A DNA stretch of 64,000 nucleotides from Schmidtea polychroa (taxonomy: Eukaryota). Below are positions 20,442-54,737 of the stretch, piece after piece. Position 1 is the first letter of the stretch; each line of letters starts with the position of its first letter. The stretch spans positions 77,996,001 to 78,060,000 of the forward strand of contig CM097886.1 of the NCBI GenBank assembly GCA_044892525.1. The letters are read 5' to 3'. The notes under the pieces were generated by a model, which saw only the letters and a program-made list of their open reading frames with translations, ran no database searches and had not been told where the DNA came from. Both the position numbers and the translations under genes were made by a program.

Positions 20442-21688
20442 ATCTTTGATTTTCCTTCCTTAGCTTCTTCATGTCTTGTTTGACACTGGGTGCAAATCAT
20501 ACTTTTCAATCTTGATAGTCCATCTGCATTCAAGTGTTCTTCGCCTTTCCGATATTTTAGTTCAAAATCATATTGCGACAGGTTAGTTAACCATGTTTGG
20601 AACTGCGGACTGATTGGCGTTTTTTAGTGTTCATGAAAATTAATAATTTGTGGTCGGTGCGAATTATGAATTTTTTCACGTACAGATATTCTCTAAAATG
20701 CATGACATATTCATGTACGGCGAGCAGTTCTTTCCTGGTTACACAGTATCTCTTTTCATGTGATGACATATGTCTCGAGCCATAAGCTATGACAGATTCT
20801 TTTTCATCTTCTGTAATTTGACTCAAAACTGCACCAATGGCTCCGAAACTAGCGTCTGTGTCTAAGATAAAAGTCCTATCTTCTCTTGGAAAATCAAGGA
20901 TAGGTGCTTCGCACAACCGTCTCTTCAGAGTTTGAAAGCTCTCATTGCATTCTTTAGTCCAATTTATATCTTTATCGCATCCAGATGTTGCAGCGTATAA
21001 TAGTTCGGCGATTTTGGCATAGTCTTTGATGAATCTTCTATAGTAGTTCGTTAATCCGAGAAACGATCTCAATTGTTTTGAACATGTTGGTACTTCTGCT
21101 TTCTCGATCTCTTCCACTTTCTTCCTGTTTGTCTGGATACCCTTCTCGTTAACTGTGTGACCAAGGAAACACAACACAATTCTGTTTAATGAATTTGCAT
21201 TTTTCTGGATTTATCTTTAGTCCTGCCATTTGAATTCTTCTGAATATTTCCCTTAATAGCTCTTCGTGGTCTTTTTGACTTTTACCATATACCAAGATAT
21301 CATCTAGATAAACCACTACTCCCTTGAATAGCATTCCTTCTAGCACTGTGTGCATCAGTCTCTGGAATATCACAGGGGCTGTTGCTAAGTCAAACGGTAG
21401 TCTATTGAAGCAAAATTGTTCTGCTCTTGTACTGAATGCAGTCATTTCTTGAATTTCTGGAGCCAACTCCACTTGATAATACGCCTGACCTAAATCGATT
21501 GACGAAAATATTTTTGCATTCGTGAGACATTCTAGTAAGAATTTGGTATTTAATTTTGCTTAAACATTTAATACTGAATATAATTAAATTTTTAATTATT
21601 TAACTGAAAAAAATTCATTAAAAATTAAATATATTTAAATAAAAGTTGTTTAAATAATATTTAGATTTGTAATATATATTTTAATATT

Positions 21689-39905: not shown

Positions 39906-40945
39906 TGTTGGGGTTCAGTAGGAACCGGAAATAAACGTTCGAAATTAGATAATAAATAAAATAATAATTAATTACCAAAATTAGGATTAAAATAAAAATA
40001 GTATTTTAAAATTACCAAAAATAGAAATTAAATACTAAAATTAAAATGAAAACATAATTAGTAATAAATAATTACTAAAAATAGAATTGTAGGAATTATT
40101 TAAAATATATAATAAAAATAGTAATTAAACAATTACTATTAATAGAATTACGTAAAATAAATTTGTATAAATAGCAGATAAAAAATTAGATGAAGGGACG
40201 AAGATAGGAGTGAGAAAAAACCGCAGTGACTAAAATTAGGAACCAATTCTATTTATAGTAACGATCAAGTTTCATCAAGTGATAAGAATCGTATCGATTG
40301 AAAGAAAATTAGTTTCGTAAATTTTTGGGAATTTATTTCTGTGCACATAGACAGTTGGATTACAGAAATCGTGATAATTATTGGAAATATCAAATCGATA
40401 GTTAATTTGTGGAATAATTATTGAAACTCTCTTCAGTACTATTTAAGGAATATCAGTTAGTTTTATCAATATTTTAATTATTAATATTTGAATAATTGTA
40501 AAGGTATTTATAAAGGGTTTATTTGCTTTAAATAAATTTAGGGGATATCCTGACGTCAGCACGAATTTTGTGTTGTCTCGTTAGTAATATTTATTAAAAA
40601 GAATTAACCAATTTCTGGGTTAATTCTATAGCGTAAATTTTGGTGATTGTCCCGTTCTCTTTTCCTTTCACCTACATCGGGCTGTTGGCACATTTAGGGC
40701 CAGCCTTGATACTTAGTAACACTCTTCAGGGCGGTTTGAATAACCGTTTTCTATACTTAGAGAAAGCAGCGCGGTGTAACTATATTTATACATATTTAAA
40801 CGTGTAACTAACTTTTAATTGAAAATAAATATTTGAAACATATCTCTTATTTATTTATTTGATTACCTACGCGCATAAATTATTTACTTTGAGTCAGATA
40901 GAACATTTTTGTGTTAGTTCGAAGACATACCCATCGAACCTAACA
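39906..40945 (+). repeat. 5' LTR (1040 bp)
   Basis: TGTTGGGG...CCTAACA; matches 53698-54737 with six substitutions spotted by eye; contains palindromic TGACGTCA (40551-40558) and AATAAA near 40824. Confidence 0.97.
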
Positions 40946-40948
40946 TTT

Positions 40949-40966
40949 TGGTGAGCCCGACGTGAT
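40949..40966 (+). promoter_or_regulatory. Primer binding site complementary to tRNA-Trp 3' end
   Basis: TGGTGAGCCCGACGTGAT, 3 nt after the 5' LTR; its reverse complement ATCACGTCGGGCTCACCA is nearly identical to the animal tRNA-Trp 3' end (ATCACGTCGGGGTCACCA). Confidence 0.85.
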
Positions 40967-41044
40967 AAAATTATCAGCGGGTAGATATTGAATTAAAACA
41001 AAATAGCGTTAGGAACTAGAGCCAGAGTAAAACTGGAAAATCAA

Positions 41045-43696
41045 ATGGCAGAGGAAGCTAATGTAAATGCATTTGCCAGATATCCCGCTCTGCCCGTAAA
41101 GGCATTCAGCGGTGATCCGGGAGAATTCCCAGAGTTTATGTCTGAATATTATCAGATGGCCAAAGCATATGCCTATCCAGATAATATCATGATACAAAGG
41201 CTACCTATATATTTGAAGGGGCTGGCAAGAGAAAAATATAATGACATTATGGCATTACCAATTGCCCAAGTTCCAAAAACATGGGCTGAAATGAGAGAAC
41301 AAATGACTGCTCGAATATTGCCCGGAGATGCGGGAAGAATATTTAGACAACAATTTTATCACCGAAAACAGAATGCCAATGAACATGTAGGGGAATTTGC
41401 ACACCAGCTATCACTAATTGCTGAAAGAGCATTCGGACCAAAAACCACATGGGCAAAGCCCACAGAATTGTTAGTTAAGGATCAGTTATGGGCAGGACTT
41501 ACTCCTACAATGAGGAACGCTCTAATATTACATACTAGTGATGATTTTGATGAATTGACTCGGAAAGCTGTCGTAATTGAAAGCAGCTTGGAAAAGTCAA
41601 CCATGTTCCTCGTAAACAGTGAAAGAACACCCGTAGAATGTTTCAATTGCCATAGAAAAGGGCATATAGCGAAGGATTGTACCAGCAGGAAAATTATGGA
41701 CAATCGCAAAAGTATGCAATGCACCAAATGTGGACGGAATAACCATGGTGCGGAAAATTGTAGAGTACAGAATTTGCAATGCGAAAAATGTAAACGAAAG
41801 GGACATGTTGCTGCGGTCTGCAAGACTAGAAGTCCTCAGAACAGCAATAATTTTAGCACAATTAAAAGAGATGATGTAAATTCATCAGGAAAGATAAAAT
41901 GTCACGGATGTGGGAAATTCGGACATATGATGAGGTCATGTCCTCAGAACCAGAGTGGAAATACGAGTCAGTTCAATAAAAATACCGATAAGGGTAATGT
42001 GAACAAGTCTAAGACCACTTTCATGGTTAACCAGGATCAAGGGTTAACGTATTTGCAACAACTGGAAATGGAAATCCAGGAGGAAAAGAATAGGTTGGCT
42101 AGATTGACCGACCAAGAAGGCACCATCTTCATGGTAGAAGTTGGAAGAGATGAATATCTCAGAAAAAAGGACTCCGTTAGAGAGGACCTTCAGGAAACGG
42201 AATCAGAGGAGAGTTCCGATGATGAACCTAGTATGGCCACCATACTAAGCGAGTTCGATAGAACCTTGCCAGGGAAAGCAAAGGTAAAAGAAGGGTCGGA
42301 TACCCTAACAAAATGTTTAAAACTGGTGGATTCCAGATATGAGTACCAGCAGAAGCTGGCCAGACAATTGGGAAAATTGGGAGAAACAGAAATTAAAATT
42401 CACGAAATCGATACAGTAGTAAAACTGATATCGCAGGTCGAAGATGATCCAAAGTATCATAACGACACGTACAAAATCCTAAGGAAATTAGGAAAACTCT
42501 TGGAACATGAGTGGGATCTCCAAGATGCCCAGCTCAATATAAAACTCCCACAGGATAAAGAGTATAATCTCGATATAAATGTAAGAAGTCGAGCCGATAA
42601 ATTAAAGGAAACATTGACAAGTATTAAGCATCAAGGATATGACTTATACTTATGTGGAATAAAATTAGAAGCAAATCAAACACTTCTACAGAACGGGATA
42701 CTCCCAGGTAGAGTGACAAAGCTCACAGCAAAGAGAGCACAGAAGCCAGTAGCAGTAATGGATCAAGATAGCGTATTCTTGATTACTCAAATGGAAATAG
42801 AGAGATTGGAAGAAACCCAACAATTAACCCAGCGACTAGGGTTGGAATTGCAGAAATCTCCACGAGATGGAGAAACTATAAAGGAAATACTTGACTGGAT
42901 GTTAGTATTGCGTATACCAGTAGATTTGTTGGAAGCAATAATTCCACTTATACTACCAGTGGTAAAGGAAACAAGCCCATTCCAGACGCAAATTGAAGCT
43001 CTGATGAGGAAAAATGGGAAAGCTATCCGAAGTCAGCCTGATAGACAAGGCAACATTAATCTAGACGTGCGAATGATGGGAAAAGAACCATTAACAATGA
43101 TTTATAATTGCTATATCAAGGTTAAAATATTGAGGAGAGATGTAATTGCCACCGATCAAACTACAGGTATATTCCTGATAATGGTCCATGGCAGGCAGGT
43201 GGATGATGATGAATATTTAGTGGATGTGGGTTGTCTACCGCTGGCAACAACCACGGTAATGATCATCCCAGTAACTCCACCAGAGTCCCAGTGGTCATTA
43301 ATGAGACTGCCAGATATAGCAAACGAAATTGCGGAAGAGATTGAGGAAATAAGATTAGAGGAAATTAATCCCTGTCCAATGGTGGACATTGACGAGGAAG
43401 ATTACTTCTCAGAATACGTCAGATTAAATCCAGGAGAAACAAACATAGGAGCTACTACGTCACAAGCAGTAACAAATCTGGAGACTGAAAAACCTCCGGA
43501 GAAAGTGAAAAAAGATGCACGAGGACGTCCTAGAAAGGATCAAATGAAACCTCCACCCAAGGAGCAGTTAAATCCGGAAACGATCCGGAAAATTCAGTTA
43601 AAAACATTAGCAGGGATAGCTCAAGAAATGGACGACCAGGCGGAGATGAGACAACGTCAGAAAGGTCGTTATTGTGGCAACGTATACAAAAAATGA
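41045..43696 (+). CDS. gag: Extended Gag (883 aa): capsid-like domain, four CCHC zinc knuckles, ~550-aa unknown extension with AT-hook-like motif
   Basis: FSGDPGEFPEF, IYLKGLAREKY, KQNANEHVGEF (retrotransposon gag pattern); CFNCHRKGHIAKDC, CTKCGRNNHGAENC, CEKCKRKGHVAAVC, CHGCGKFGHMMRSC; RGRPRK at 43520-43537. Confidence 0.92.
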   Translation: MAEEANVNAFARYPALPVKAFSGDPGEFPEFMSEYYQMAKAYAYPDNIMIQRLPIYLKGLAREKYNDIMALPIAQVPKTWAEMREQMTARILPGDAGRIFRQQFYHRKQNANEHVGEFAHQLSLIAERAFGPKTTWAKPTELLVKDQLWAGLTPTMRNALILHTSDDFDELTRKAVVIESSLEKSTMFLVNSERTPVECFNCHRKGHIAKDCTSRKIMDNRKSMQCTKCGRNNHGAENCRVQNLQCEKCKRKGHVAAVCKTRSPQNSNNFSTIKRDDVNSSGKIKCHGCGKFGHMMRSCPQNQSGNTSQFNKNTDKGNVNKSKTTFMVNQDQGLTYLQQLEMEIQEEKNRLARLTDQEGTIFMVEVGRDEYLRKKDSVREDLQETESEESSDDEPSMATILSEFDRTLPGKAKVKEGSDTLTKCLKLVDSRYEYQQKLARQLGKLGETEIKIHEIDTVVKLISQVEDDPKYHNDTYKILRKLGKLLEHEWDLQDAQLNIKLPQDKEYNLDINVRSRADKLKETLTSIKHQGYDLYLCGIKLEANQTLLQNGILPGRVTKLTAKRAQKPVAVMDQDSVFLITQMEIERLEETQQLTQRLGLELQKSPRDGETIKEILDWMLVLRIPVDLLEAIIPLILPVVKETSPFQTQIEALMRKNGKAIRSQPDRQGNINLDVRMMGKEPLTMIYNCYIKVKILRRDVIATDQTTGIFLIMVHGRQVDDDEYLVDVGCLPLATTTVMIIPVTPPESQWSLMRLPDIANEIAEEIEEIRLEEINPCPMVDIDEEDYFSEYVRLNPGETNIGATTSQAVTNLETEKPPEKVKKDARGRPRKDQMKPPPKEQLNPETIRKIQLKTLAGIAQEMDDQAEMRQRQKGRYCGNVYKK

Positions 43697-46410
43697 TCGG
43701 GATTATCAGGCCCGAATGGAGAATTCCAAAAATCAAGGGAATCGAAGTAAAGAAAATAACAAAAGAGGTCAAGAAGACAATGGACAGAGTATCCAAAGAT
43801 GTATCAACAAGAGATACCCAGGAGGCCATAGAAGCATTCGTGCAGCAAGGGTTAACAAGAGGGAAAGTGGTAACATCTTTATCATTGTTAATCCAAAATG
43901 CCTTAGCCCGGATAGGGGACGATAAAAGGCTTATAGAACGAGAAATCGATCGAATAGTCGAAATGGTAGATTATTACCTAGAGGTATGGATGACCGTAAA
44001 CAAATTGTGGGAAAAGGAAATAATTCCAAAACCACGATTTGAAGTCGTAGAAGAAGCCATAAATAATGGTAGTCCAGGCACCGGAAACATGACAAGCATG
44101 ATCCTGATGTTCCTAGTGATGATGGGCATATTAAAACAAACAAATTCATTAACAGTATTTGACTGTGGAAATCCTAAACTATCTCGGGTATATTCGCTAG
44201 TAGATGCAATCGAGTGCAAAGAGGCGTATCCCGAGAAGGTTCATCAAGGGGAAAAGGTAGAATATTATGTCTACCAAGAGAGTGAATTTTATAGAACCAC
44301 GATAAAGGAATGTAGAGTTCAGAGAGCTACGTTCGAATATTATTGCGGTAGTAATAGCTATTCTGCTTTTCTATCCGCAACATTAATACCAAGGCCGGTA
44401 AACATAATGCCCGAAGATTGCTTAGATGCATTTCGAAAAGGAAGCATGAGGATAGACAACGAGGTATCAATCTCAGCAGAAATAGGGAAAACATTGGGAA
44501 TAACAATCACCCGAGGAGGAACAATTGCCTCAGATGGAACCTGCGAAGGTAGAAAGAAAATTCGCGGTAGCAATCTGGTTTCCTATGTAGTAGACATAGA
44601 AGATTACTCAGTGGAGCTACGAGAATATGAGGGAACATTCGATGTGGCCACAGGAAAATTAATGGCACATCCGCAATGCAATGCCAAGTTCGGTAGTTGT
44701 AAAACGGGAACCACTACGTTAATTTACGAACAAATGAGAGATCATTGTGAGTTGGCTTTCCTCAAGAAAATTCCTTTTAGAAAATTAAATGGAACTAAAT
44801 ATCGGGACTCCCAGAATCCAGAAAAGGTTTGGGATAAAGCAAAAACGCTGAAGAAAATCAACAAACAAGAGAAGGAAGATATCGGAGAGGAAAACACACC
44901 TCTAGTGTTAATATCGGAAGACAAGACGGAAGCAATTCGATTTGTCCGAAAAGATAAAAAGACTAAATGTGGGAAAAGAGTATACGAGACGAACTATAAA
45001 GGAATTTTCCTGTCAAGAGAATATATCCGGAATTCCAAGGTCCTACATGTAAAGGATATCAAAATCACGAATTATATAAATAATAAGGTAGTATATTTAT
45101 ATCATGATCTGCAGGGACAAATGCAAGATATGTATCAAGAAGTGATACTAAACGATTGTAAGCTAAATCGTGAAATAGTCCGAAATAGATTAGCAATATC
45201 TATCGTTAACCCAGAGTTGGTTACTCCAATGTTATTGGAAGATGGAATGTTTGGCAGAATCATGGGAGAAGCTATATATAGCTATGAGTGTAAACCAGTT
45301 GAAGTACAATTAGCCAGATTTAATCAATGCACTCTAGAACTGCCAGTATCTTACCAAGGAAAATTGAGATTTGTTATGCCAGTAACCAGAAAGTTACTTG
45401 AGGAAAACGCTAAACCTCAACCAGCTATATGCAACCCGGCAATATCACCATTATACAAAATAAATGACATGTGGATATCTCTGCCGGAAAGAAAACCATC
45501 TACACAACGGGTAGAGACCTTGGAGGTGACTAAATTAAAAGATAATCTGGAATTCAAGTCACTAGATGAATTAGCAAAAGGAGGGATCTATACTCCCGAC
45601 GATATCGAGGAAGCAAGGAGGACATTGCTATTCCCACAAATCAGAGACAGAGGTATCACGGAAATTATAAGAACAATTTATCATGATAATTTGATACGAC
45701 CAGATTACAATTTATTATTTGGACCGGAACACTATAAAGAAGCAGCAAAGAACGTAATGATGAAAATATGGGGACGATTTACCAATTTTGGTATTTTCGT
45801 CGCGGGATGTTCAGGAATTTACGCAATATTTGTAATTTTAAAGCTGATAATTACACAACTGATGTCAACATATAGCATATTCAAAATTGGAGGATGGTCA
45901 TGGAAACTGCTATTAGGACTATGTCCTATGTGTGCAGAGTTTGCATTATTCAAACATCACAGAAAAGAAATTAAAGAAATTAGACAGAAACACTTGGTCA
46001 AACATGAAGTAATTGGAACAGAAATGGAGGAGTATTCGAGTTATCGGGACGATAACAATTCAAAGGGAGGAGGTAATGGAGGCTCTCGTGAGACATCTTC
46101 AAGATCAAATCAATCACGAAAACAGAACTACAACAAAAAACCGAATCAGCAACAAAGAAAATCGAGATTCAAGGAATATCTTCCTCCATATGACCAATCA
46201 AAGGAAATCTATGTGAGAAAACAGTCCTCAGAAGGAGAATATGACAGTTCCGACCAAAAATTCGACATAAGGTCACCCAGATTCAAGAGAAGTCCAAGAT
46301 ATGTACAATTGCCAACTTTGAGGAGTTTACCATCCGCACCAAACGAAGGGCGGGAACATTCCAGGGAAACAACACTCAGAACAGGACGACACCAATGGAA
46401 AATCGGTTAA
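43672..46410 (+). CDS. env: Env-like glycoprotein, chuvirus/gB-like (class III fusogen) family; frame open from 43534
   Basis: Signal-like segment MTSMILMFLVMMGILKQTNS (44089-44148) then LTVFDC..P...YSLVDAIEC, ECRVQR..FEYYCG, EDC, GTIASDGTCEG, LNDCKL, EGMFGRIMGEAIYSYECKPVEV, CTLELPV, RFVMPVTRKL, CNPAISPLYKINDMW; TM region IWGRFTNFGIFVAGCSGIYAIFVIL (about 45766-45870) and a second hydrophobic stretch. Confidence 0.8.
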   Translation: MWQRIQKMIGIIRPEWRIPKIKGIEVKKITKEVKKTMDRVSKDVSTRDTQEAIEAFVQQGLTRGKVVTSLSLLIQNALARIGDDKRLIEREIDRIVEMVDYYLEVWMTVNKLWEKEIIPKPRFEVVEEAINNGSPGTGNMTSMILMFLVMMGILKQTNSLTVFDCGNPKLSRVYSLVDAIECKEAYPEKVHQGEKVEYYVYQESEFYRTTIKECRVQRATFEYYCGSNSYSAFLSATLIPRPVNIMPEDCLDAFRKGSMRIDNEVSISAEIGKTLGITITRGGTIASDGTCEGRKKIRGSNLVSYVVDIEDYSVELREYEGTFDVATGKLMAHPQCNAKFGSCKTGTTTLIYEQMRDHCELAFLKKIPFRKLNGTKYRDSQNPEKVWDKAKTLKKINKQEKEDIGEENTPLVLISEDKTEAIRFVRKDKKTKCGKRVYETNYKGIFLSREYIRNSKVLHVKDIKITNYINNKVVYLYHDLQGQMQDMYQEVILNDCKLNREIVRNRLAISIVNPELVTPMLLEDGMFGRIMGEAIYSYECKPVEVQLARFNQCTLELPVSYQGKLRFVMPVTRKLLEENAKPQPAICNPAISPLYKINDMWISLPERKPSTQRVETLEVTKLKDNLEFKSLDELAKGGIYTPDDIEEARRTLLFPQIRDRGITEIIRTIYHDNLIRPDYNLLFGPEHYKEAAKNVMMKIWGRFTNFGIFVAGCSGIYAIFVILKLIITQLMSTYSIFKIGGWSWKLLLGLCPMCAEFALFKHHRKEIKEIRQKHLVKHEVIGTEMEEYSSYRDDNNSKGGGNGGSRETSSRSNQSRKQNYNKKPNQQQRKSRFKEYLPPYDQSKEIYVRKQSSEGEYDSSDQKFDIRSPRFKRSPRYVQLPTLRSLPSAPNEGREHSRETTLRTGRHQWKIG

Positions 46411-46428
46411 GATACCATATTTAATAAT

Positions 46429-49017
46429 TTGACATGCTCGACATTGCCAGAAGTACCTAAAGTGCACTATCCAAAGGAAGCGTTAGAGTCAATTAAAGCT
46501 AAATTCAAAGAGTATAATCCTCAACTGAGTGATCCTGAATTACTGGAAGCAGAACAAACGAGGGCAAATACAATAGGTATATCGCACGATACTATCTTGA
46601 TGGTCAACAACCCAGTGAACTTGGATAAAAAGCCAATGATAAAAATAAGAGTGAACCGACATACAGTTAATGCGGTGATAGACTCAGGAGCAGATGGTAC
46701 CATAATTGAAGCTAAATTGTTAAACCATCATGAACTGCAATCGCTAAAACCGGCAGGAGTAAAATTAACAGGAGCAAACGGATCCTCATTAAACGTAATA
46801 GGGTCATTATCATGCCAGATTAAGCTTTGTGACCAGGAGCTCCATCACGACATCATAGTGATGAGAAGTCTCCCAGCCGAATGTCTATTGGGTATGGACA
46901 TCCTAAAAAGACTACGAGGAGTAGTATTCGACTGTGCTTCTGGATTGTTAATCCGAGCGAGAGGTAAAAAGAGAAAAATTTACAATGATGATACAGCTTA
47001 TATTGATCATACAACTATCATACCACCCAGAGCAGAAACTGTATGCTTTGTAGCTACAAGCAATAATTGGGAAGGTGAAGTTGTATTCGAACCAGATGAA
47101 AAGTTTTCGGAGAAATACAACATACCAGTTACTCATAGCGTAGGCTTAATAGTCAATGGCAGAATACCAATCAGGGTAGCCAATCTGGACATTAAACCAC
47201 TTTACTTATATCCAGATACCAGAGTGGGCAGAATCTGGAAACAAAACGAACCACAAGCCACGGGAGAAGGGTCGATACTCACCGTAAAGGCAGAAGAAAG
47301 AGATCCAGACATTGAGTACTATGATGCACCTACAGCAAACAGCAAAGTGCTAACTAGAAAAGAAAATATTCAAGTAAATATGTTATTGAGGAAATATGAC
47401 CAGGTATTCGCGAAACATGAATACGATCTGGGAAAGACAAACTTGTTAGAACATGAGATTGTTCTCACCAATACAAAACCTATAAAGTTGAGACCATACC
47501 GTATTCCATTCAGTCTGGAGGAATCAGTAGATAAACAGGTGAAACTGATGTTAAAACATGGCATAATCAGGCATAGTAAATCACCATATCAATCACCAAT
47601 GATAGTGGTGGCCAAGAAGGATGGATCAGTACGATTATGTAACGACTATCGCATGGTTAACGAAGCAACATGCAAAGATAGCCATCCATTGCCATTGTTA
47701 GATTATATCTATGGACGCATGAGAGACGCTAGGTTCTTCTCAGTAATGGACGCCCAAAAGGGATTTTATCAAATTAAGTTAAAAGATGAGACTATACCAA
47801 TAACAGCGTTCTCTACGAGTATGGGTCATTACGAATATAACGTAATGCCATTTGGACTCACAGGAGCTCCAGCCACATTTCAAAGAGCAATGAATTTGAT
47901 GCTCATGGATGTACACCATGCGATGGTATACATTGACGACGTCATCGTATTCTCGCCAGATTTGGAAAAACACTTGGAACATTTGGAAGATGTGTTCAAG
48001 AGGTTGATAAATGCCAACATGAAAGTGAAACCCACCAAATGTAAATGGGCTGAACCGGAAGTGGTATATGTTGGCCATATCATATCACGAGACGGGGTTA
48101 AACCCGATCCAGCTAATGTCGAAAAGGTAAAGAATTTCCCGGAGCCTAAAACCGTTAAACATATCAAAGGGTTTTTAGGTCTAGTTGGATACTACAGAAA
48201 ATTCATTAGAAACTTTTCGGTTATAGCTTTTCCACTCACGCAGTTAGAAGGCAAAAATGTCAAATTTGTGTGGGGAACAGAACAGCAAGAAGCATTTGAT
48301 ATGCTCAAGGAAAAACTCATCAAGCCACCTATATTGCGATTTCCAGACTTTGAGAGACAATTTTTGGTTATGACAGATGCCAGCACTCGGGGCATAGGTG
48401 CTGTGTTAGGTCAGAGAGATGACCTAGGAGATGAGTATGCAATTGCATACGCTAGCAGAGGATTAAAACCGCACGAAAGAAACTACGCAGTAATAGAACT
48501 AGAAGCTTTAGCAATTGTGTATGCTATAACCCAGTTTAGGACTTATCTATGGGGTCGAAAGATCATAGTGTATACCGATCATAGACCATTACAGTGGTTG
48601 ACGAAACACACAATGGATACATCACAACTGGTCAGATGGGCATTAATTTTACAGCCATATGACATAGAAATTCATTATAGAAAAGGAGATCATAATGGAA
48701 ATGCAGACGCTTTATCGAGAATGGACCAGGAGGAGGAAGCAGAAGATGTGAAGGAAGGACGTCTTGAAGGGACTATCTTCACACTGACTCGAGAAGCCAA
48801 CCGGCTAGCTGATTTAATGGAGGCACAAAAATCTGACGAAGAAATCAATGTTATTCGTCAAGCCCTGGAAGCGAAATACGTGCCCACAGAATTCGCGAAA
48901 TATTGGGAAAAGAATAAAGACAAATTTGTGCTGGAAGAGGGATTAGTGAAATACTCAGATGTAAGAGATAACGTTATAATGGTTCCTAAGAAATACCGTG
49001 AAGCACTCATGTTGTAG
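46429..49017 (+). CDS. pol: Pol part 1: aspartic protease, dUTPase-like spacer domain, reverse transcriptase, RNase H; ends at TAG 49015-49017 within the integrase N-terminal region
   Basis: VIDSGAD; RLCNDYR, GFYQI, YNVMPFGLTGAPATFQ, YIDD; MTDASTRGIGAVL, ELEALAI, YTDHRPL, NADALSR. Confidence 0.96.
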   Translation: MTCSTLPEVPKVHYPKEALESIKAKFKEYNPQLSDPELLEAEQTRANTIGISHDTILMVNNPVNLDKKPMIKIRVNRHTVNAVIDSGADGTIIEAKLLNHHELQSLKPAGVKLTGANGSSLNVIGSLSCQIKLCDQELHHDIIVMRSLPAECLLGMDILKRLRGVVFDCASGLLIRARGKKRKIYNDDTAYIDHTTIIPPRAETVCFVATSNNWEGEVVFEPDEKFSEKYNIPVTHSVGLIVNGRIPIRVANLDIKPLYLYPDTRVGRIWKQNEPQATGEGSILTVKAEERDPDIEYYDAPTANSKVLTRKENIQVNMLLRKYDQVFAKHEYDLGKTNLLEHEIVLTNTKPIKLRPYRIPFSLEESVDKQVKLMLKHGIIRHSKSPYQSPMIVVAKKDGSVRLCNDYRMVNEATCKDSHPLPLLDYIYGRMRDARFFSVMDAQKGFYQIKLKDETIPITAFSTSMGHYEYNVMPFGLTGAPATFQRAMNLMLMDVHHAMVYIDDVIVFSPDLEKHLEHLEDVFKRLINANMKVKPTKCKWAEPEVVYVGHIISRDGVKPDPANVEKVKNFPEPKTVKHIKGFLGLVGYYRKFIRNFSVIAFPLTQLEGKNVKFVWGTEQQEAFDMLKEKLIKPPILRFPDFERQFLVMTDASTRGIGAVLGQRDDLGDEYAIAYASRGLKPHERNYAVIELEALAIVYAITQFRTYLWGRKIIVYTDHRPLQWLTKHTMDTSQLVRWALILQPYDIEIHYRKGDHNGNADALSRMDQEEEAEDVKEGRLEGTIFTLTREANRLADLMEAQKSDEEINVIRQALEAKYVPTEFAKYWEKNKDKFVLEEGLVKYSDVRDNVIMVPKKYREALML

Positions 49018-51105
49018 TATCACGATGGAGCCTTAGGAGGCCACCTGTCATCTAGAAAAACATTGTCAAGGTTAAAACAGAAATACTTTTGGCCCGGTAT
49101 GAAATCAGATGTTAAAACCTGGTGTCAGACATGTAAGATCTGTATCACCAGAAGAAATACCGGAAAGAAGCCACACGTACCAATGAAGCCGATGCCAGTA
49201 CCATCTACACCTATGGAAATGACGGCAATGGACGTTTTGGGACCATTCAAAGAATCTAATAGCGGAAACAAATACATATTAGTTTTCTGCAACTACTTGA
49301 CTAAGTGGCCAGAGGCCTACCCGATGCCTAATCACAAAGCTGATACAATAGCTAGAATTTTCGTTGAACAAATTGTCTTTAGGTATGGAGTACCTACAAA
49401 GCTATTAACGGATCGGGGAGCTGATTTCATGAGTAATCTGCTCAAAGGAATAAATGATTATTTTGGAGTTCTAAAGTTGAACACTTCCCCATATCACCCA
49501 CAGACGGATGGGCTAGTAGAGCGATTTAATGGAACATTAGCTAATATGTTAGCATCATATGTAAATTCAGGGCAAACGGATTGGGACATCCACATTCCAT
49601 CCTGTTTATTTGCATACAGGAATGCAGTACACGAAGGAACAGGTGAGACACCATTTTACTTAATGTATCTGAGGCAAAGCAAAATGCCAGTAGATCTGTT
49701 GTTCTTCCCTAAAGCAACACAGTATTTAGATCAGGAAGATTATCTAATGGAAATGAGGGAAAGAATGCAGGAAGCATGGGCTAGAGCAGGTCTCAGTATA
49801 AAATATAATCAGGAGGCATCCAAAGATTATCATGACCGAAAAGCCAAGGATCATGGTATATTGGTTGGAGACCAGGTGATGTTGGAAAGTCATTATAACA
49901 AGAAAGGCTTATCACCAAAACTCATGCGAAATTTCAAAGGGCCATATGAGGTATTGAGAACCACGGATACAAATCTCATATTACAATTGTTGGCCAACAG
50001 AAAAGCAGAACCAATAATGGTGCATGCTAATCGGTGTAAAAAGTGCGAAATCTCAACAAAGGGAGCCTCTGGAAATCCAAAAGTAAAAGCACCAGAGAAA
50101 CAAGTGAAACCAAACACTACCGAAGAACCACAAGAACACCGATACCCATTGAGATCAAGGGGTGTTCCAAAATCGGTAACCATTTTGTTAATAATAAGCT
50201 GTATGATGACTTTGGCAATGGCAAAAAGGGATAGAAAGGCATACTTTCAGCCTATGGCGATGCAAGTGAAACATTTACACTTTATAAGAACGTATAACGG
50301 AATTAGCATTCTCACAACGTGCGATAATGCCACAAAATTCAGTTTACATTTCTACAACAAGTACTTGCGGGTCCGCCAACTCGATTCAGAAGAAAAAGAG
50401 TGGGATTTATATGATTTAAAAGCCGAGACGGATTATAAACTGCATATTGCAGCATCAAAGTTATATCAGAGTGGTTGGTATACCTATCACGTATCTAATT
50501 GGATCCTACGGACGGCAGATTTCACAAATCGCATATCGATATCCTACGAGAAGGAGAAAGTAAAGTTTAGCCAGCAAATTAACAGGGAGGAGAAGGTGAA
50601 AATCAGCATTCTAGACGGATCTACCACGAGAGGAACATTATGGTTAGATCAGAACTCCCCCTCCCAAGAAATGTATCTAAATCAGTCCGTAGAATATTCG
50701 GTTCTAGTTATATACTATAGTCCGAGGAAACGGGAGGACGATAGGTGGTTCGAGGTATTTGAGGAGATATTACCTCTGAGACAACCTGTTATAACGAAAA
50801 CACCACCAAAAGTCGTCAAGGAGAACATGGTGATACATCCCGCAATGTGGCAACATCTTAGACAGTTGCCACCTATCCAACAAATATCTTGCCAAACGCC
50901 CCCAAATCTGACAAACTGTTGTGACTGTAATGCCATCACGAACTTTAATGTTGGATATATTCTGAAAATACCCATAGGGGTATGGATTACGGTGTCGGCC
51001 GTACTATCGCTAGTAACTACACTAATAGCTATGGGTATTTGGACCAAGCTATATTTTAGACAAGCCATAAGGGCCTACGATGGAGTACTGATGTCGCAAT
51101 TATGA
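49018..51105 (+). CDS. pol: Pol part 2: integrase (same frame, after the stop) fused C-terminally to a signal peptide + FN3-like ectodomain + TM protein
   Basis: YHDGALGGH...CQTCKIC zinc finger, MDVLGPF, TDRGADF, SPYHPQTDGLVERFN, KGPY; integrase-type end RYPLRSR (50140-50160); then VTILLIISCMMTLAMA, LYDLKAETDYKLHIAA, and TM IPIGVWITVSAVLSLVTTLIAMGIW (about 50968-51043). Confidence 0.9.
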   Translation, partial: YHDGALGGHLSSRKTLSRLKQKYFWPGMKSDVKTWCQTCKICITRRNTGKKPHVPMKPMPVPSTPMEMTAMDVLGPFKESNSGNKYILVFCNYLTKWPEAYPMPNHKADTIARIFVEQIVFRYGVPTKLLTDRGADFMSNLLKGINDYFGVLKLNTSPYHPQTDGLVERFNGTLANMLASYVNSGQTDWDIHIPSCLFAYRNAVHEGTGETPFYLMYLRQSKMPVDLLFFPKATQYLDQEDYLMEMRERMQEAWARAGLSIKYNQEASKDYHDRKAKDHGILVGDQVMLESHYNKKGLSPKLMRNFKGPYEVLRTTDTNLILQLLANRKAEPIMVHANRCKKCEISTKGASGNPKVKAPEKQVKPNTTEEPQEHRYPLRSRGVPKSVTILLIISCMMTLAMAKRDRKAYFQPMAMQVKHLHFIRTYNGISILTTCDNATKFSLHFYNKYLRVRQLDSEEKEWDLYDLKAETDYKLHIAASKLYQSGWYTYHVSNWILRTADFTNRISISYEKEKVKFSQQINREEKVKISILDGSTTRGTLWLDQNSPSQEMYLNQSVEYSVLVIYYSPRKREDDRWFEVFEEILPLRQPVITKTPPKVVKENMVIHPAMWQHLRQLPPIQQISCQTPPNLTNCCDCNAITNFNVGYILKIPIGVWITVSAVLSLVTTLIAMGIWTKLYFRQAIRAYDGVLMSQL

Positions 51106-51228
51106 CAATTACAGACTCCCCCGAGGGAAAAATCATATATAAATATTTATATATATCTTAAAATCTATATTTACGTAGAGCTCCAGGTAGCATTAAAATT
51201 CAGCATATGTAGATCTTTTATAAGACTC

Positions 51229-53391
51229 ATGCATATCTTTTTAGCCTATTATGGCATATCAGTATATCTGATATTATGGTTAATGATTTTTATTTCAGGA
51301 ATGCAGAGCCACCCAATATCCCAATATCAAGGAAGACATAGCATTATACGTGCTACAACCTTACTAAAAGAAAAACTTATTTATAAAAACCTGGAGAAGC
51401 AGGTTATGGAGCAAAGTAGAAAAGGCCAAAGGCACTGGTTTTACGGACATTGTTCAGGCATACCCAATAATTTTAAATTTGACGAGGCCCCAAAGCGTCA
51501 AATGATCATCTCAAGAATCCCGGGTAAGCATAATGGTAGTTTTAGGCTTACCGATGTCATGCTTGAGTTTGGCAGACATAGTCTGACCAACCACCTGTGG
51601 ATACACGCCATTAACAAACCATTTACGGTTTATGTTCCTGGCGCCACAAACCCCATTTTGCTGCAAAAGCACACAACCGTCGAGATAGAAAATGGGGATG
51701 GAAGGGAAAAGAACATCTCACTGTTATGTGAAGGTATAGATACCATCATAGCAATGGAAATTCTGGAACCTCACAGAGAAACACAAACAAGATGGGTTAA
51801 TGACCCAAACTGGACATATAATGTCAACGATAACGACATTAAAACATTTAAGTCTTTCGTTAGACAGCGTTTGAACCCTAGACAAGAGGATAACCTCACC
51901 ATTTTCGTAGCAGCTCACTACGCTACACTACGACAATTCCTGAAACCGGCAATCGTGGCCATCTCGATCTCACACTTCAATGGTGATCTAATACTCAACA
52001 CGAGAGTTACCCCCAGAGCACAGGTCAAACATTACCAATCGCATGCGCATGGTATGACCGAGAAACAAATAACAGGACAGTTCGACGGAGAAGACTGTGC
52101 CGAAAGAATTAGAAAAATCTGCGATGGGAAGATCATCGTGGGATTGCTAGTAAAGGACCTATTAGAAGTAATCAGATTCCCAATGCAGCGCGCACTCGGA
52201 ATTCGTGAGTTAGGCGCAGCTAAATGCCTCGAAAGTAGGGAACTAAAGAAATGCAACGGGTATTACCGTTTGGCATATCTAGCAAAAGCAGTCACCGGTA
52301 AAGAGGCACATCACTTCTCGGACCTACAAACGGAGAATGATGTCACAACCATTAAGGAGATTTACGACAATTTACGAGACATCTGGGTTGATGACATTTC
52401 AACAGACACCCGGAAAGAGGTGGTGTCTTCACAAATAAAGCAGATGGAACCCGGAACCTCAAGCAGGCAGAAACCTCTAGCTATGGAGAGCTATGTGAAA
52501 GAAGATATCCCCAGGTCAAAGTTGTTGAAAATAGTGGAAGAAGATTCCTTGTCGCCGCCAGCCATTTCAATTGCTGATGAAGACGACTATGCCACTTGTG
52601 AGAGTGCAGACGATAACTGCCTCCAAGTCACCCTTACCAATGACGGTAGAGTGGTGAATTCGGCTAAAATGGAAATAGACAAACCACAGCCAGCAGAAAA
52701 ATTAGTTGAACGGGTCACCAAGATCCTGAAAGCATTGGCCCCGTTGGGTGAACCCAAACAAGGAGCAGAAGGAGGAACGTTACCCCAAGCTGTAGCACCA
52801 TTACTTAAGCTACAAGATTTGAAGTTTAAAAAGAAAACAACGGAGAAACTCCCCCAGAAAGAGGACAAGGAGAAAAATGTCCCTATCTCCGCAAAAAGGA
52901 AAAAGGAGATTCCTAAGAGTACGAAAAAGAAAATGCCTAGGATATCCATCCAGGATGAGGATGACGATCTCCTCGAAACCCACTATCAGCCACCAGATCC
53001 TGCGTTGACCAAGATATTGGCAACAAAGAGTGAACCCACGATTGCAGGAGAACCGATCGTCGTGAAGGAAGGCGAGTTCGTCGGAAGGGGCAACTCAATC
53101 AAAATACGGGAAGATCTCGACAGAGAAGATCCTAGTTGGTGGCAGAGACCCGACAGCAAATGGAAACCGCGTATCAAGGAATACGACGGAGGCCCAATCC
53201 ATGAAGTAGCCGTATCCAATTTCCCCGATTACGGAGTATTGGAGGCTAATGAGGGCTCATATATCATCTCCTCAATTGTGTACAAAGAGGTAAGTACACG
53301 GGAGACTTTGGTGGTCAGTTACAGACCTGACATTGTAGAACAAAGGATCCGTAACGAAAGTGCCAAGGTCATGAAAAGGAGAAAATACTAG
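51229..53391 (+). CDS. Accessory ORF4 (probably 696 aa from ATG 51301) with DEDDh/REX4-ISG20-like exonuclease fold, catalytic residues apparently altered
   Basis: Segment 51898-52375 follows the REX4/ISG20 pattern (AISISHFNGDLILNTRVTP, VKHY...HGMT, GKIIVG, IRE, RLAYLAKAVTG, ENDVTTIKEIY). Long stop-free ORF inside the element before the PPT. Confidence 0.7.
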   Translation: MHIFLAYYGISVYLILWLMIFISGMQSHPISQYQGRHSIIRATTLLKEKLIYKNLEKQVMEQSRKGQRHWFYGHCSGIPNNFKFDEAPKRQMIISRIPGKHNGSFRLTDVMLEFGRHSLTNHLWIHAINKPFTVYVPGATNPILLQKHTTVEIENGDGREKNISLLCEGIDTIIAMEILEPHRETQTRWVNDPNWTYNVNDNDIKTFKSFVRQRLNPRQEDNLTIFVAAHYATLRQFLKPAIVAISISHFNGDLILNTRVTPRAQVKHYQSHAHGMTEKQITGQFDGEDCAERIRKICDGKIIVGLLVKDLLEVIRFPMQRALGIRELGAAKCLESRELKKCNGYYRLAYLAKAVTGKEAHHFSDLQTENDVTTIKEIYDNLRDIWVDDISTDTRKEVVSSQIKQMEPGTSSRQKPLAMESYVKEDIPRSKLLKIVEEDSLSPPAISIADEDDYATCESADDNCLQVTLTNDGRVVNSAKMEIDKPQPAEKLVERVTKILKALAPLGEPKQGAEGGTLPQAVAPLLKLQDLKFKKKTTEKLPQKEDKEKNVPISAKRKKEIPKSTKKKMPRISIQDEDDDLLETHYQPPDPALTKILATKSEPTIAGEPIVVKEGEFVGRGNSIKIREDLDREDPSWWQRPDSKWKPRIKEYDGGPIHEVAVSNFPDYGVLEANEGSYIISSIVYKEVSTRETLVVSYRPDIVEQRIRNESAKVMKRRKY

Positions 53392-53685
53392 CAATTCGGC
53401 TATGTGTTCAATGGACCTAGCAATTTGCTATACGTCCTCAATCCCAACGCCTTCGACAACTCAATCCAATCCAGATATTCAAATTGATAGACATTATGAA
53501 CAACATTTGATTAATCTGATTCTTGATTTTGTTTAACAATTTTTGATTATTTTGATTTTGACTTTGATTGCTTTATATATATATTTTAATCAGTTGATTC
53601 ATTTTATTTTTATTTTTATTTTTTATGTATCTGCTGCAAATTGTCTTACCTTTACCGCTTTAATTTTCGGGACGAAAATCTTGTT

Positions 53686-53695
53686 AGGGGGAAGA
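53686..53695 (+). other. Polypurine tract
   Basis: AGGGGGAAGA two bases before the 3' LTR start at 53698. Confidence 0.85.
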
Positions 53696-53697
53696 CA

Positions 53698-54737
53698 TGT
53701 TGGGGTTCAGTAGGAACCGGAAATAAACGTTCGAAATTAGATAATAAATAAAATAATAATTAATTACCAAAATTAGGATTAAAATAAAAATAGTATTTTA
53801 AAATTACCAAAAATAGAAATTAAATACTAAAATTAAAATGAAAACATAATTAGTAATAAATAATTACTAAAAATAGAATTGTAGGAATTATTTAAAATAT
53901 ATAATAAAAATAGTAATTAAACAATTACTATTAATAGAATTACGTAAAATAAATTTGTATAAATAGCAGATAAAAAATTAGATGAAGGGACGAAGATAGG
54001 AGTGAGAAAAAACCGCAGTGATTAAAATTAGGAACCAATTCTATTTATAGTAACGATCAAGTTTCGTCAAGTGATAAGAATCGTATCGATTGAAAGAAAA
54101 TTAGTTTCGTAAATTTTTGGGAATTTATTTCTGTGCACATAGACAGTTGGATTACAGAAATCGTGATAATTATTGGAAATATCAAATCGATAGTTAATTT
54201 GTGGAATAATTATTAAAACTCTCTTCAGTACTATTTAAGGAATATCAGTTAGTTTTATCAATATTTTAATTATTAATATTTGAATAATTGTAAAGGTATT
54301 TATAAAGGGTTTATTTGCTTTAAATAAATTTAGGGGATATCCTGACGTCAGCACGAATTTTGTGTTGTCTCGTTAGTAATATTTATTAAAAAGAATTAAC
54401 CAATTTCTGGGTTAATTCTATAGCGTAAATTTTGGTGATTGTCCCGTTCTCTTTTCCTTTCACCTACATCGGGCTGTTGGCGCATTTAGGGCCAGCCTTG
54501 ATACTTAGTAACACTCTTCAGGGCGGTTTGAATAACCGTTTTCTATACTTAGAGAAAGCAGCGCGGTGTAACTATATTTATACATATTTAAACGTGTAAC
54601 TAACTTTTAATTGAAAATAAATATTGGAAACATATCTCTTATTTATTTATTTGATTACCTACGCGCATAAATTATTTACTTGGAGTCAGATAGAACATTT
54701 TTGTGTTAGTTCGAAGACATACCCATCGAACCTAACA
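53698..54737 (+). repeat. 3' LTR (1040 bp)
   Basis: Direct repeat of 39906-40945. Confidence 0.97.

What the first reader, a model, noticed from the sequence alone, without database searches (positions are those of the whole stretch)
44089..45960. Chuvirus/gB-like class III fusion glycoprotein located upstream of pol
The cysteine and motif pattern (xFDC, SL.d..eC, C.v.r....yCG, G.i..dG.C.G, GEaiy...C.pv.V, C..eLPV, F..PvtR.l, C....splY.i...W, W..f..fG...aG) is the pattern I recognise from Jingchuvirales glycoproteins and their retroelement-captured relatives. The ORF is intact over more than 600 codons. Its position between gag and pol suggests an independent capture or a rearrangement.
Basis: partly seen in the sequence, partly recalled or inferred. 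Interest (0 to 1): 0.85.

Follow-up and report, generated by a model that had tools for sequence, protein, structure and literature searches.

The report
Envelope gene inside a retrotransposon polyprotein
This is the virus-like fusion protein of a multi-copy flatworm retrotransposon whose gag-env-pol layout is already published; the less familiar part is a second membrane protein and a probably inactive nuclease that travel in the same element.

Summary
The glycoprotein is real: all nine motifs are present, Pfam Monjiviricetes_fusion matches at E 4e-89, and a family profile weakly matches herpesvirus gB. It is not a stand-alone gene or a fresh capture. It is the Env part of a 14.8-kb Ty3/gypsy element (LTRs 99.4% identical, tRNA-Trp primer site). 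This copy has three private breaks; its family encodes one frame of about 3,369 codons: Gag, two ubiquitin-like domains, Env, PR-RT-RH-IN and a second type I membrane protein (X2), followed by an ISG20-like nuclease ORF without its first catalytic acids. Env is under strong purifying selection (pN/pS 0.023). In-frame env between gag and pol in planarians is published (PMC6431247), and PMC13524379 lists a relative 67 of 100 residues identical. Not found in the papers I searched: X2 (4 of 4 families here, a fast-evolving beta-sandwich protein), the nuclease ORF, and the topology that would hang Pol between two membrane anchors. X2 is a candidate entry partner for the gB-like protein, untested. 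Earlier scan notes hold no look-alike sequence; one covers Burro in this genome.

The parts
39906..40945 (+). 5' LTR (TG...CA, 1,040 nt)
   Evidence: 6 mismatches to the 3' LTR
40949..40966 (+). Primer-binding site, complementary to the 3' end of host tRNA-Trp
   Evidence: the matching genomic pattern lies in genes that ARAGORN calls tRNA-Trp(cca), 6 of 6 genes in L068
41045..42031 (+). Gag: capsid-like part and four CCHC zinc knuckles
   Evidence: zf-CCHC E 1e-8; Retrotrans_gag E 0.0011, below cut-off; cysteine spacing
42524..43270 (+). Two ubiquitin-like domains in the C-terminal half of Gag (about 42524-42724 and 43052-43270)
   Evidence: four-family profile hits ubiquilin UBL E 1.3e-4 and ISG15 E 0.0022; Pfam ubiquitin in 2 of 4 members, best E 1.1e-5, not in the window member alone
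43640..43646 (+). Frameshift private to this copy (break 1)
   Evidence: not shared by 20 of 20 other copies
44077..44145 (+). Internal signal sequence before Env (cleavage site judged by eye)
   Evidence: hydropathy peak 1.58; a peak at the same place in the sister families and database polyproteins
44146..45777 (+). Env ectodomain, Monjiviricetes/gB type: 14 cysteines, one N-glycosylation sequon, no R-x-K/R-R furin motif
   Evidence: each of the 14 cysteines is kept in at least 15 of 17 clade members and at least 46 of 51 other homologues; pN/pS 0.023
45793..45849 (+). Env transmembrane anchor, followed by a cytosolic linker that runs into the protease
   Evidence: hydropathy 2.28; anchor and protease site share one frame in 17 of 20 copies
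46408..46410 (+). Stop codon private to this copy (break 2)
   Evidence: a stop in 0 of 20 other copies
46411..50070 (+). Pol: protease, reverse transcriptase, RNase H, integrase (Ty3/gypsy order), with a private stop at 49015-49017 (break 3)
   Evidence: that position is a stop in 0 of 19 covered copies
50161..51105 (+). X2: second type I membrane protein in frame behind integrase (signal 50164-50220, beta-rich ectodomain, anchor 50974-51030, family-wide stop at 51103)
   Evidence: (stop in 19 of 19; pN/pS 0.16)
51229..53391 (+). ORF5: ISG20/REX4-like DEDDh nuclease domain (about 51856-52400) without the acidic residues of motif ExoI in this family
   Evidence: pN/pS 0.086 in the domain
53683..53697 (+). 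Polypurine tract
   Evidence: sequence directly before the 3' LTR
53698..54737 (+). 3' LTR
   Evidence: both flanks read TTTT, a possible but uninformative 4-bp target duplication

Best explanation
The ORF is the fusion-protein (Env) segment of a recently active Ty3/gypsy retrotransposon family of a flatworm (host inferred), a GAG-ENV-POL element with gB-type Env. SHOWN: the family has one reading frame Gag-UBL-UBL-signal-Env-anchor-PR-RT-RH-IN-signal-X2-anchor, then a separate ORF5; Env is as constrained as RT; the window copy is broken in three places. INFERRED (from hydropathy and standard signal-peptidase biology): the polyprotein is threaded through the ER membrane with four alternating hydrophobic segments, so that Gag and Pol stay cytosolic and Env and X2 are luminal. 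Signal peptidase separates Gag from Env, so Pol cannot be packaged as the usual Gag-Pol fusion and instead starts out tied to the tail of Env and to the signal of X2 until the element's protease frees it. Particles therefore assemble on the membrane that carries Env and bud as enveloped virus-like particles. Env trimers fuse membranes as uncleaved class III proteins do, moving the element between cells, for example from differentiated cells into stem or germ cells. X2 most likely rides on the same membrane as a host-facing accessory protein (attachment, receptor blocking or decoy); ORF5 most likely binds rather than degrades RNA.
For: One frame: 4 of 71 scored Env matches lie, with no stop in the match, in frames of 3,366-3,369 codons, the length from gag to 51103; gag end and Env signal share a frame in 16 of 20 copies, Env anchor and protease in 17 of 20, integrase core and X2 signal in 11 of 20; the three breaks are absent from 20 of 20, 20 of 20 and 19 of 19 copies. 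Selection on variants shared by at least two copies: Env ectodomain 7 non-synonymous to 82 synonymous (0.023), RT-RH 0.026, IN 0.032, X2 0.16. Same order in three sister families and Env upstream of protease or RT, or downstream of gag, in 11 of 13 database clade members. Signal plus anchor after integrase in 3 of 3 database polyproteins that run past integrase. Published: flatworm GAG-ENV-POL elements with gB-type Env and AlphaFold trimers (PMC13524379); in-frame env in Burro (PMC6431247).
Against: No particle, fusion, expression or processing data: no run on record as RNA was found. My Env model failed, and the gB profile match is weak and local (E 0.018). Topology rests on a Kyte-Doolittle scan: the Env signal peak is modest (1.58), two sister families show an extra hydrophobic peak 70-80 residues before it, the window Gag has two peaks of 1.7-1.8, and a mildly hydrophobic stretch follows the Env anchor; one more true membrane crossing would upset the scheme. 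A 1:1 ratio of Gag to Env and Pol is unusual, and spliced or truncated RNAs that supply extra Gag are not excluded. The 20 copies came from the 40 best-scoring hits, not a random draw.
Confidence: 0.8

Rival explanations
1. Recent, independent capture of a chuvirus glycoprotein by this element, or a rearrangement peculiar to it.
For: The protein belongs to the family built on Monjiviricetes glycoproteins; stand-alone-size homologues are 20-28% identical; chuvirus G capture is published for mosquito BEL/Pao elements (PMC7642597, search listing only).
Against: Env of the 4 families and 13 database proteins forms one clade on a long stem (support 0.996, stem 0.49, against 51 other homologues; midpoint root). 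Env and RT trees both give (window,(B,(C,D))), although three database elements sit differently in the two trees. Codon GC3 of env (0.34) is close to that of gag and pol (0.37-0.38). The order is lineage-wide and published. An ancient capture at the root of the clade is not excluded.
Confidence: 0.05
2. Env is kept for an intracellular or host-side role (membrane anchoring of assembly, blocking of related viruses, cell-cell fusion) and the element never leaves the cell as an infectious particle.
For: No infectivity data for any gB-type element; PMC13524379 says the entry mechanism is unknown. Being in frame upstream of Pol, Env must stay open for Pol to be made, which alone explains the lack of stops.
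Against: Staying open does not explain a pN/pS of 0.023, five times lower than the neighbouring spacer (0.12), nor 14 cysteines kept with distant homologues.
Confidence: 0.15
3. For X2 only: it is a host-manipulating cargo (decoy or receptor-masking protein) of the kind Burro carries, with no part in entry.
For: X2 looks like a generic Ig/FN3-like membrane protein; it sits among other host-like cargo (ubiquitin-like domains, ISG20-like ORF); Burro carries apoptosis and ubiquitin modules (PMC6431247); fast divergence (21-24% identity to sister families against 42-46% for Env) fits host conflict.
Against: It is made in frame and one-to-one with Env in 4 of 4 families and the slot is filled in 3 of 3 database polyproteins, whereas the nuclease ORF is missing from 3 of 3 loci of one sister family. 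Fast divergence fits a receptor-binding protein equally well.
Confidence: 0.45
4. The three breaks in the window are assembly errors or programmed recoding sites, and this copy is functional.
For: A run of A precedes the apparent gag stop, as at frameshift sites.
Against: None of the three is shared by any other covered copy, so none is programmed; independent runs do not show the first two as the family state; two are in-frame stops, like the other singleton stops seen across copies. An assembly error at one of them cannot be excluded.
Confidence: 0.05

Closest known systems
Platyhelminthes GAG-ENV-POL errantiviruses with HSV/gB-type ENV, closest Smed_errantivirus_4 (Chary and Hayashi, eLife 2026, PMC13524379)
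   Same: Ty3/gypsy pol, GAG-ENV-POL order, gB-type Env; 67 of the first 100 residues of the published domain I-II row are identical to the window protein (counted by eye from supplement file 3); multi-copy.
   Different: A different family member in another genome. The paper's table gives no LTRs and no primer tRNA for its six Schmidtea elements. Its main text has 0 hits for polyprotein, in-frame, exonuclease, fibronectin or Burro, so the single frame, X2, ORF5 and the ubiquitin-like domains are not described there; figures were not visible to me.
Burro/GYPSM1 giant gypsy elements of planarians (Arkhipova and Yushenova 2019, PMC6431247, section 7 read whole)
   Same: env in frame between gag and pol in one polyprotein, with hits to mononegavirus fusion proteins; a ubiquitin/SUMO-like domain before Env; accessory ORFs.
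   Different: 14.8 kb against over 30 kb; about 3,369 against 4,873 codons; no BCL2, BIR, MATH, ankyrin or dUTPase hit in the window ORFs; that section mentions no membrane protein behind integrase and no nuclease ORF.
Nematode non-canonical endogenous retroviruses (Sacco et al. 2022, PMID 35550022)
   Same: Flipped order of env and pol, glycoprotein of RNA-virus type (title and citing sentence in PMC13524379). I recall that they form one continuous gag-env-pro-pol frame with extra ORFs; recalled, not read.
   Different: Different host phylum, and a separate pol clade according to PMC13524379. The paper is not held, so I cannot say whether it describes an X2-like protein.
Chuvirus-glycoprotein BEL/Pao elements of mosquitoes (Dezordi et al. 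2020, PMC7642597; search listing only)
   Same: Same glycoprotein family in a retroelement; one database homologue carries DUF5641 in front of the glycoprotein (P0073), which I recall as a BEL/Pao pol C-terminal domain.
   Different: BEL/Pao rather than Ty3/gypsy; Env behind pol.
Bdelloid rotifer LTR elements with DEDDy exonuclease or small membrane-protein ORF3s (Rodriguez et al. 2017, PMC5408684; passages)
   Same: A DEDD nuclease ORF and membrane-protein ORFs downstream of pol.
   Different: Theirs is RNase D-like DEDDy with catalytic residues intact; ORF5 is ISG20/REX4-like and lacks the ExoI acids in this family; their membrane ORFs are separate ORFs, in elements without a gB-type Env.

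Membership tests
Ty3/gypsy LTR retrotransposon (Metaviridae) | Paired LTRs with TG...CA ends | tested here: met
   1,040 nt, 6 mismatches
Ty3/gypsy LTR retrotransposon (Metaviridae) | tRNA primer site and polypurine tract | tested here: met
   tRNA-Trp site at 40949; purine tract before 53698
Ty3/gypsy LTR retrotransposon (Metaviridae) | Domain order PR-RT-RH-IN with H2C2 integrase | tested here: met
Ty3/gypsy LTR retrotransposon (Metaviridae) | Target-site duplication | tested here: inconclusive
   TTTT on both sides in T-rich flanks
Monjiviricetes-type fusion glycoprotein (PF24664) | Score above the curated cut-off | tested here: met
   299.8 bits against 27
Class III fusion protein (gB/VSV G/gp64 fold) | Homology to a solved class III protein | tested here: inconclusive
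   profile match to herpesvirus gB, 33 of 35 hits, best E 0.018 over 74 columns; single-sequence search found none
Class III fusion protein (gB/VSV G/gp64 fold) | Five-domain fold, trimer, fusion loops | tested here: inconclusive
   single-sequence model pLDDT 32, search uninformative; AlphaFold trimers of relatives are reported in PMC13524379
Class III fusion protein (gB/VSV G/gp64 fold) | Membrane fusion activity | not testable with these tools
   needs a bench assay
GAG-ENV-POL errantivirus with HSV/gB-type ENV (PMC13524379) | Order gag-env-pol with Ty3/gypsy pol | tested here: met
GAG-ENV-POL errantivirus with HSV/gB-type ENV (PMC13524379) | Ectodomain between signal peptide and membrane anchor, conserved cysteines | tested here: met
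GAG-ENV-POL errantivirus with HSV/gB-type ENV (PMC13524379) | Uninterrupted ORFs and multiple similar copies | tested here: met
   met for the family; this copy itself has three breaks
GAG-ENV-POL errantivirus with HSV/gB-type ENV (PMC13524379) | C1a cysteine-bridge type of the Schmidtea elements | tested here: inconclusive
   cysteines align by eye with the C1a row of Smed_errantivirus_4; no usable model for the bridges
Endogenous chuvirus (Jingchuvirales) element | Linked L or N genes, no retroelement frame around the glycoprotein | tested here: not met
   no such hit among 15 window ORFs scanned; the protein is fused to Gag and Pol in the family
Burro/GYPSM1 | Giant size (over 30 kb) with BCL2, BIR, MATH, ankyrin cargo | tested here: not met
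   14.8 kb; none of these Pfam families at E<=0.1
Burro/GYPSM1 | In-frame env between gag and pol, ubiquitin-like domain before it | tested here: met
Burro/GYPSM1 | Same RT clade | not tested
   no Burro sequence in hand; two searches gave no answer
ISG20/REX4 DEDDh exonuclease (ORF5) | Homology to ISG20/ISG20L2 | tested here: met
   sister ORF E 6.8e-11 to ISG20L2; three-family profile E 9.7e-13; window to sister E 4e-21; window ORF alone has no Pfam hit
ISG20/REX4 DEDDh exonuclease (ORF5) | Catalytic acidic residues of motif ExoI | tested here: not met
   acidic in 0 of 18 covered copies at both positions; present in two sister families
Ig/FN3-like membrane protein (X2) | Beta-sandwich ectodomain of FN3 topology | tested here: inconclusive

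The most novel reading that the evidence does not exclude
These flatworm elements are retroelements with a two-protein entry system in one flavivirus-style polyprotein: a gB-like fusion protein paired one-to-one with a fast-evolving Ig/FN3-like attachment or trigger protein (X2), with the reverse transcriptase and integrase delivered to the budding membrane by being slung between the two anchors rather than by Gag. X2 would then be the missing partner for gB-type retrotransposon envelopes, whose entry mechanism PMC13524379 calls unknown, and ORF5 a catalytically dead ISG20 relative acting as an RNA-binding counter-defence protein.
Probability: 0.2. Interest if true: 0.75.

Novelty: new variant of a known kind. 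Interest (0 to 1): 0.42.

Why it matters
The value lies in the rest of the element. Herpesvirus gB needs partner glycoproteins, and the paper that catalogued gB-type retrotransposon envelopes leaves their entry mechanism open. A conserved slot for a second membrane protein in the same polyprotein names a concrete candidate. The single frame also predicts an unusual way to package Pol. Planarian retroelements can be de-silenced by piwi knockdown (PMC8532177), so particles, processing and cell-to-cell movement can be observed in the animal.

Tried and rejected
Env structure: single-sequence AlphaFold gave pLDDT 32; its Foldseek search had 0 matches at E<=0.001; phmmer against the PDB found nothing relevant. 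The second fold job went to X2, so Env was never folded with its alignment. X2: no Pfam hit, no homologue among 757 candidates in longer proteins, 0 viral structure matches at E<=0.001, no profile similarity to Env. Expression: no RNA holder listed; four runs laid were contigs only, none on record as RNA, and the two best-covered showed no joint with GT..AG ends among the 15 of 33 joints listed, all 15 from one run of unknown kind; this says nothing on expression or splicing. Metagenome scan: 23 pattern matches, 0 confirmed; phage collection: no match. Programmed frameshift or read-through between gag, env and pol: my first idea, rejected because no other copy shares these breaks. First Env tree had two sister sequences in the wrong frame and was discarded; one search is the repeat. 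The tree used every second one of 104 stand-alone-size homologues and left out matches under 480 residues. Whole-element genome search was not scored. A search for Burro-like Env in the genome gave no answer. Sacco 2022 and Grohme 2018 are not held; searches did not find the former. Claims that X2 and ORF5 are not in print rest on paper searches and text look-ups; figures, Repbase entries and those two papers were not seen and may describe them.
Full report
Observation. It matches Pfam PF24664 (Monjiviricetes fusion glycoprotein) at 299.8 bits, E 3.9e-89, and weakly the Borna disease virus G family. It has a hydrophobic N-terminal segment, 14 ectodomain cysteines, one N-glycosylation sequon in the ectodomain, no furin motif there, and a membrane anchor at 45793-45849. 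A profile of 104 homologues finds herpesvirus gB in 33 of 35 PDB hits, best E 0.018, on one 74-column stretch. That is weak but one-sided. My structure model had no alignment and failed, so the class III fold rests on the profile match and on published models of relatives.

Surroundings. The gene lies in a 14.8-kb LTR element, 39906-54737. The LTRs are 1,040 nt and differ at 6 positions, so the insertion is young; I give no date, having no substitution rate. The primer site matches host tRNA-Trp and a purine tract precedes the 3' LTR. Upstream is gag with four CCHC knuckles; downstream are protease, RT, RNase H and integrase in Ty3/gypsy order. The genome is 781 Mb, AT-rich, with four large contigs.

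One polyprotein, and a dead copy. In the window gag, env and pol look like separate ORFs. They are not so in the family. Of 182 candidate places 40 were scored, at 97-100% identity, and I fetched 20 of them. The frameshift near 43,640 is shared by none of 20. The stop at 46408 is a stop in 0 of 20, and the one at 49015 in 0 of 19 covered copies, while the stop at 51103 is present in 19 of 19. Gag end and Env signal share one frame in 16 of 20 copies, Env anchor and protease in 17 of 20, gag knuckle and protease in 7 of 20, protease and X2 anchor in 7 of 20; the rest carry breaks of their own or are not covered. Four of 71 scored Env matches lie, with no stop in the match, in frames of 3,366-3,369 codons. 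The '600-codon ORF' is thus an internal segment that happens to be unbroken in a broken copy.

Selection. Among variants carried by at least two of the 21 copies, the Env ectodomain has 7 non-synonymous and 82 synonymous changes (pN/pS 0.023), as low as RT-RNase H (0.026) and integrase (0.032); the spacer before Env gives 0.12, X2 0.16, the nuclease domain 0.086. Singletons give 0.16-0.38 and hold most of the stops. Env was therefore needed as a folded protein in the lineage that made these copies, not merely as an open frame. The copies were taken from the best hits and are not a random sample.

Not a private capture. At least three sister families exist in the genome; loci of all three show gag, Env, protease, RT and integrase in the same order, and 9 of the 68 places scored lie in frames of 3,334 codons or more. 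In the protein library 1,410 clusters match. In a tree of 68 ectodomains the four families and 13 database proteins form one clade (support 0.996, stem 0.49, midpoint root) apart from 51 stand-alone-size homologues; 11 of those 13 carry gag, protease or RT domains in the same chain and in the same order, and two (P0001, P0010) could not be checked. For nine elements with both domains, Env and RT trees agree on the four families and differ on three database elements. The database proteins are unnamed, so the tree cannot name a donor.

What else the element carries. (a) X2, 50161-51105: in frame behind integrase, with a signal-like segment, a beta-rich ectodomain and an anchor. The slot is filled in all four families and in 3 of 3 database polyproteins that extend past integrase, though those three show little or no sequence similarity to X2. 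X2 is 21-24% identical to its sister versions, against 42-46% for Env and 64-67% for integrase; the ectodomain scores were reached by 3, 0 and 1 of 500 shuffles. Language-model neighbours are FN3 membrane proteins at weak scores; a low-confidence model shows one beta-sandwich whose best matches are tied among Ig-like, C2 and FN3 domains. (b) ORF5, 51229-53391: homologous to sister ORFs that match ISG20L2 and ISG20. In this family the two acidic residues of motif ExoI are absent in 18 of 18 covered copies but present in two sister families; one sister family lacks the ORF within about 4.5 kb in 3 of 3 loci. (c) Two ubiquitin-like domains in the second half of Gag, seen only at profile level.

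Mechanism. Shown: domain order, single frame, four hydrophobic segments, selection. Inferred: co-translational insertion with Gag cytosolic, Env luminal, Pol cytosolic, X2 luminal; signal peptidase cuts before Env and before X2; the element's protease frees the enzymes. Since Gag is cut off from Pol, Pol would reach the particle through its tether to the Env tail, which ties replication to membrane budding. Env would act as an uncleaved class III fusogen. I put 0.8 on the element being an enveloped retroelement with this Env as its fusion protein; the packaging scheme and the role of X2 are less sure. Against the scheme: extra hydrophobic peaks in Gag and behind the anchor, an awkward 1:1 ratio, and no expression data.

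Comparison with what is known. PMC13524379 (abstract; first parts of sections 5, 6 and 9; passages; rows of supplement files 2, 3, 5, 6, 7) reports GAG-ENV-POL elements with gB-type Env in flatworms, nematodes and bryozoans and lists six in Schmidtea mediterranea; the row for Smed_errantivirus_4 is identical to the window protein at 67 of its first 100 residues, counted by eye. [quoted passage not shown] PMC5408684 (passages) describes DEDDy nuclease and membrane-protein ORFs in rotifer elements. PMC8532177 and PMC11410931 were seen as passages; PMC7642597 as a listing. Sacco 2022 and Grohme 2018 were not available; what I say of the former beyond its title and one citing sentence is recalled. 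In these sources I found no X2, no ISG20-like ORF and no discussion of topology; figures and Repbase were not seen.

Verdict. Observation confirmed; interpretation partly supported. The env-between-gag-and-pol layout is already known and this is a further member of it. With the second membrane protein and the probably inactive nuclease it is a new variant of a known kind. Interest 0.42. The boldest reading not excluded, a two-protein entry system in a membrane-threaded polyprotein, has a probability of about 0.2 and would deserve 0.75.

Noticed in passing
G000:C4, from about 55.02 Mb (L068, L069): Tandem array of tRNA-Trp genes with a 284-bp period; the pattern search gave 870 reverse and 18 forward matches genome-wide, and 99 of the first 100 listed lie in this array. 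It encodes the primer tRNA of the element.
   Followed up: partly
L059/L060 (G000:C52): Sister-family copy with an internal deletion: protease runs directly into the integrase tail and X2, RT-RNase H-integrase are gone, the nuclease ORF is kept. About 35 nuclease matches at 86-100% identity exist; whether they form a non-autonomous family was not checked.
   Followed up: partly
L066 (G000:C4): Sister-family copy in which a deletion fuses the X2 ectodomain in frame to the nuclease domain.
   Followed up: no
P0003, P0004, P0005, P0006, P0009, P0013: Several database relatives carry two or more aspartic-protease-like domains behind Env, and P0005 one more behind integrase.
   Followed up: no
P0022: Gag knuckle, weak ubiquitin (E 0.03) and Bcl-2 (E 0.055) hits before the same Env family: a Burro-like layout that would link this clade to Burro.
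   Followed up: partly
window:50140-50160: An RYPLRS motif ends the integrase just before the X2 signal in all four families and in P0005. I recall similar basic motifs as chromatin-binding or nuclear signals; recalled, not tested.
   Followed up: no
window:32542-33534: Open frame of 330 codons with three mitochondrial-carrier repeats (PF00153, E 1.6e-37), probably a host gene 6 kb from the insertion.
   Followed up: no
window:37713-38870; 26051-28052; 56746-57873: Tc5/pogo-like transposase and hAT/BED transposase remnants.
   Followed up: no
window:2348-3688 and 20587-21210 (- strand): Broken integrase and RNase H pieces of other gypsy-like elements.
   Followed up: no
window:55252-55793: Inverted repeats built of 21-bp tandem units, MITE- or foldback-like.
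   Followed up: no
window:59241-60470: Open frame of 409 codons with no Pfam hit.
   Followed up: no
L015, L017-L019 and others, LTR region: Many copies are 95-96% identical to the window inside but only about 79% over the last two-thirds of the LTR: subfamilies with divergent or exchanged LTR parts.
   Followed up: no
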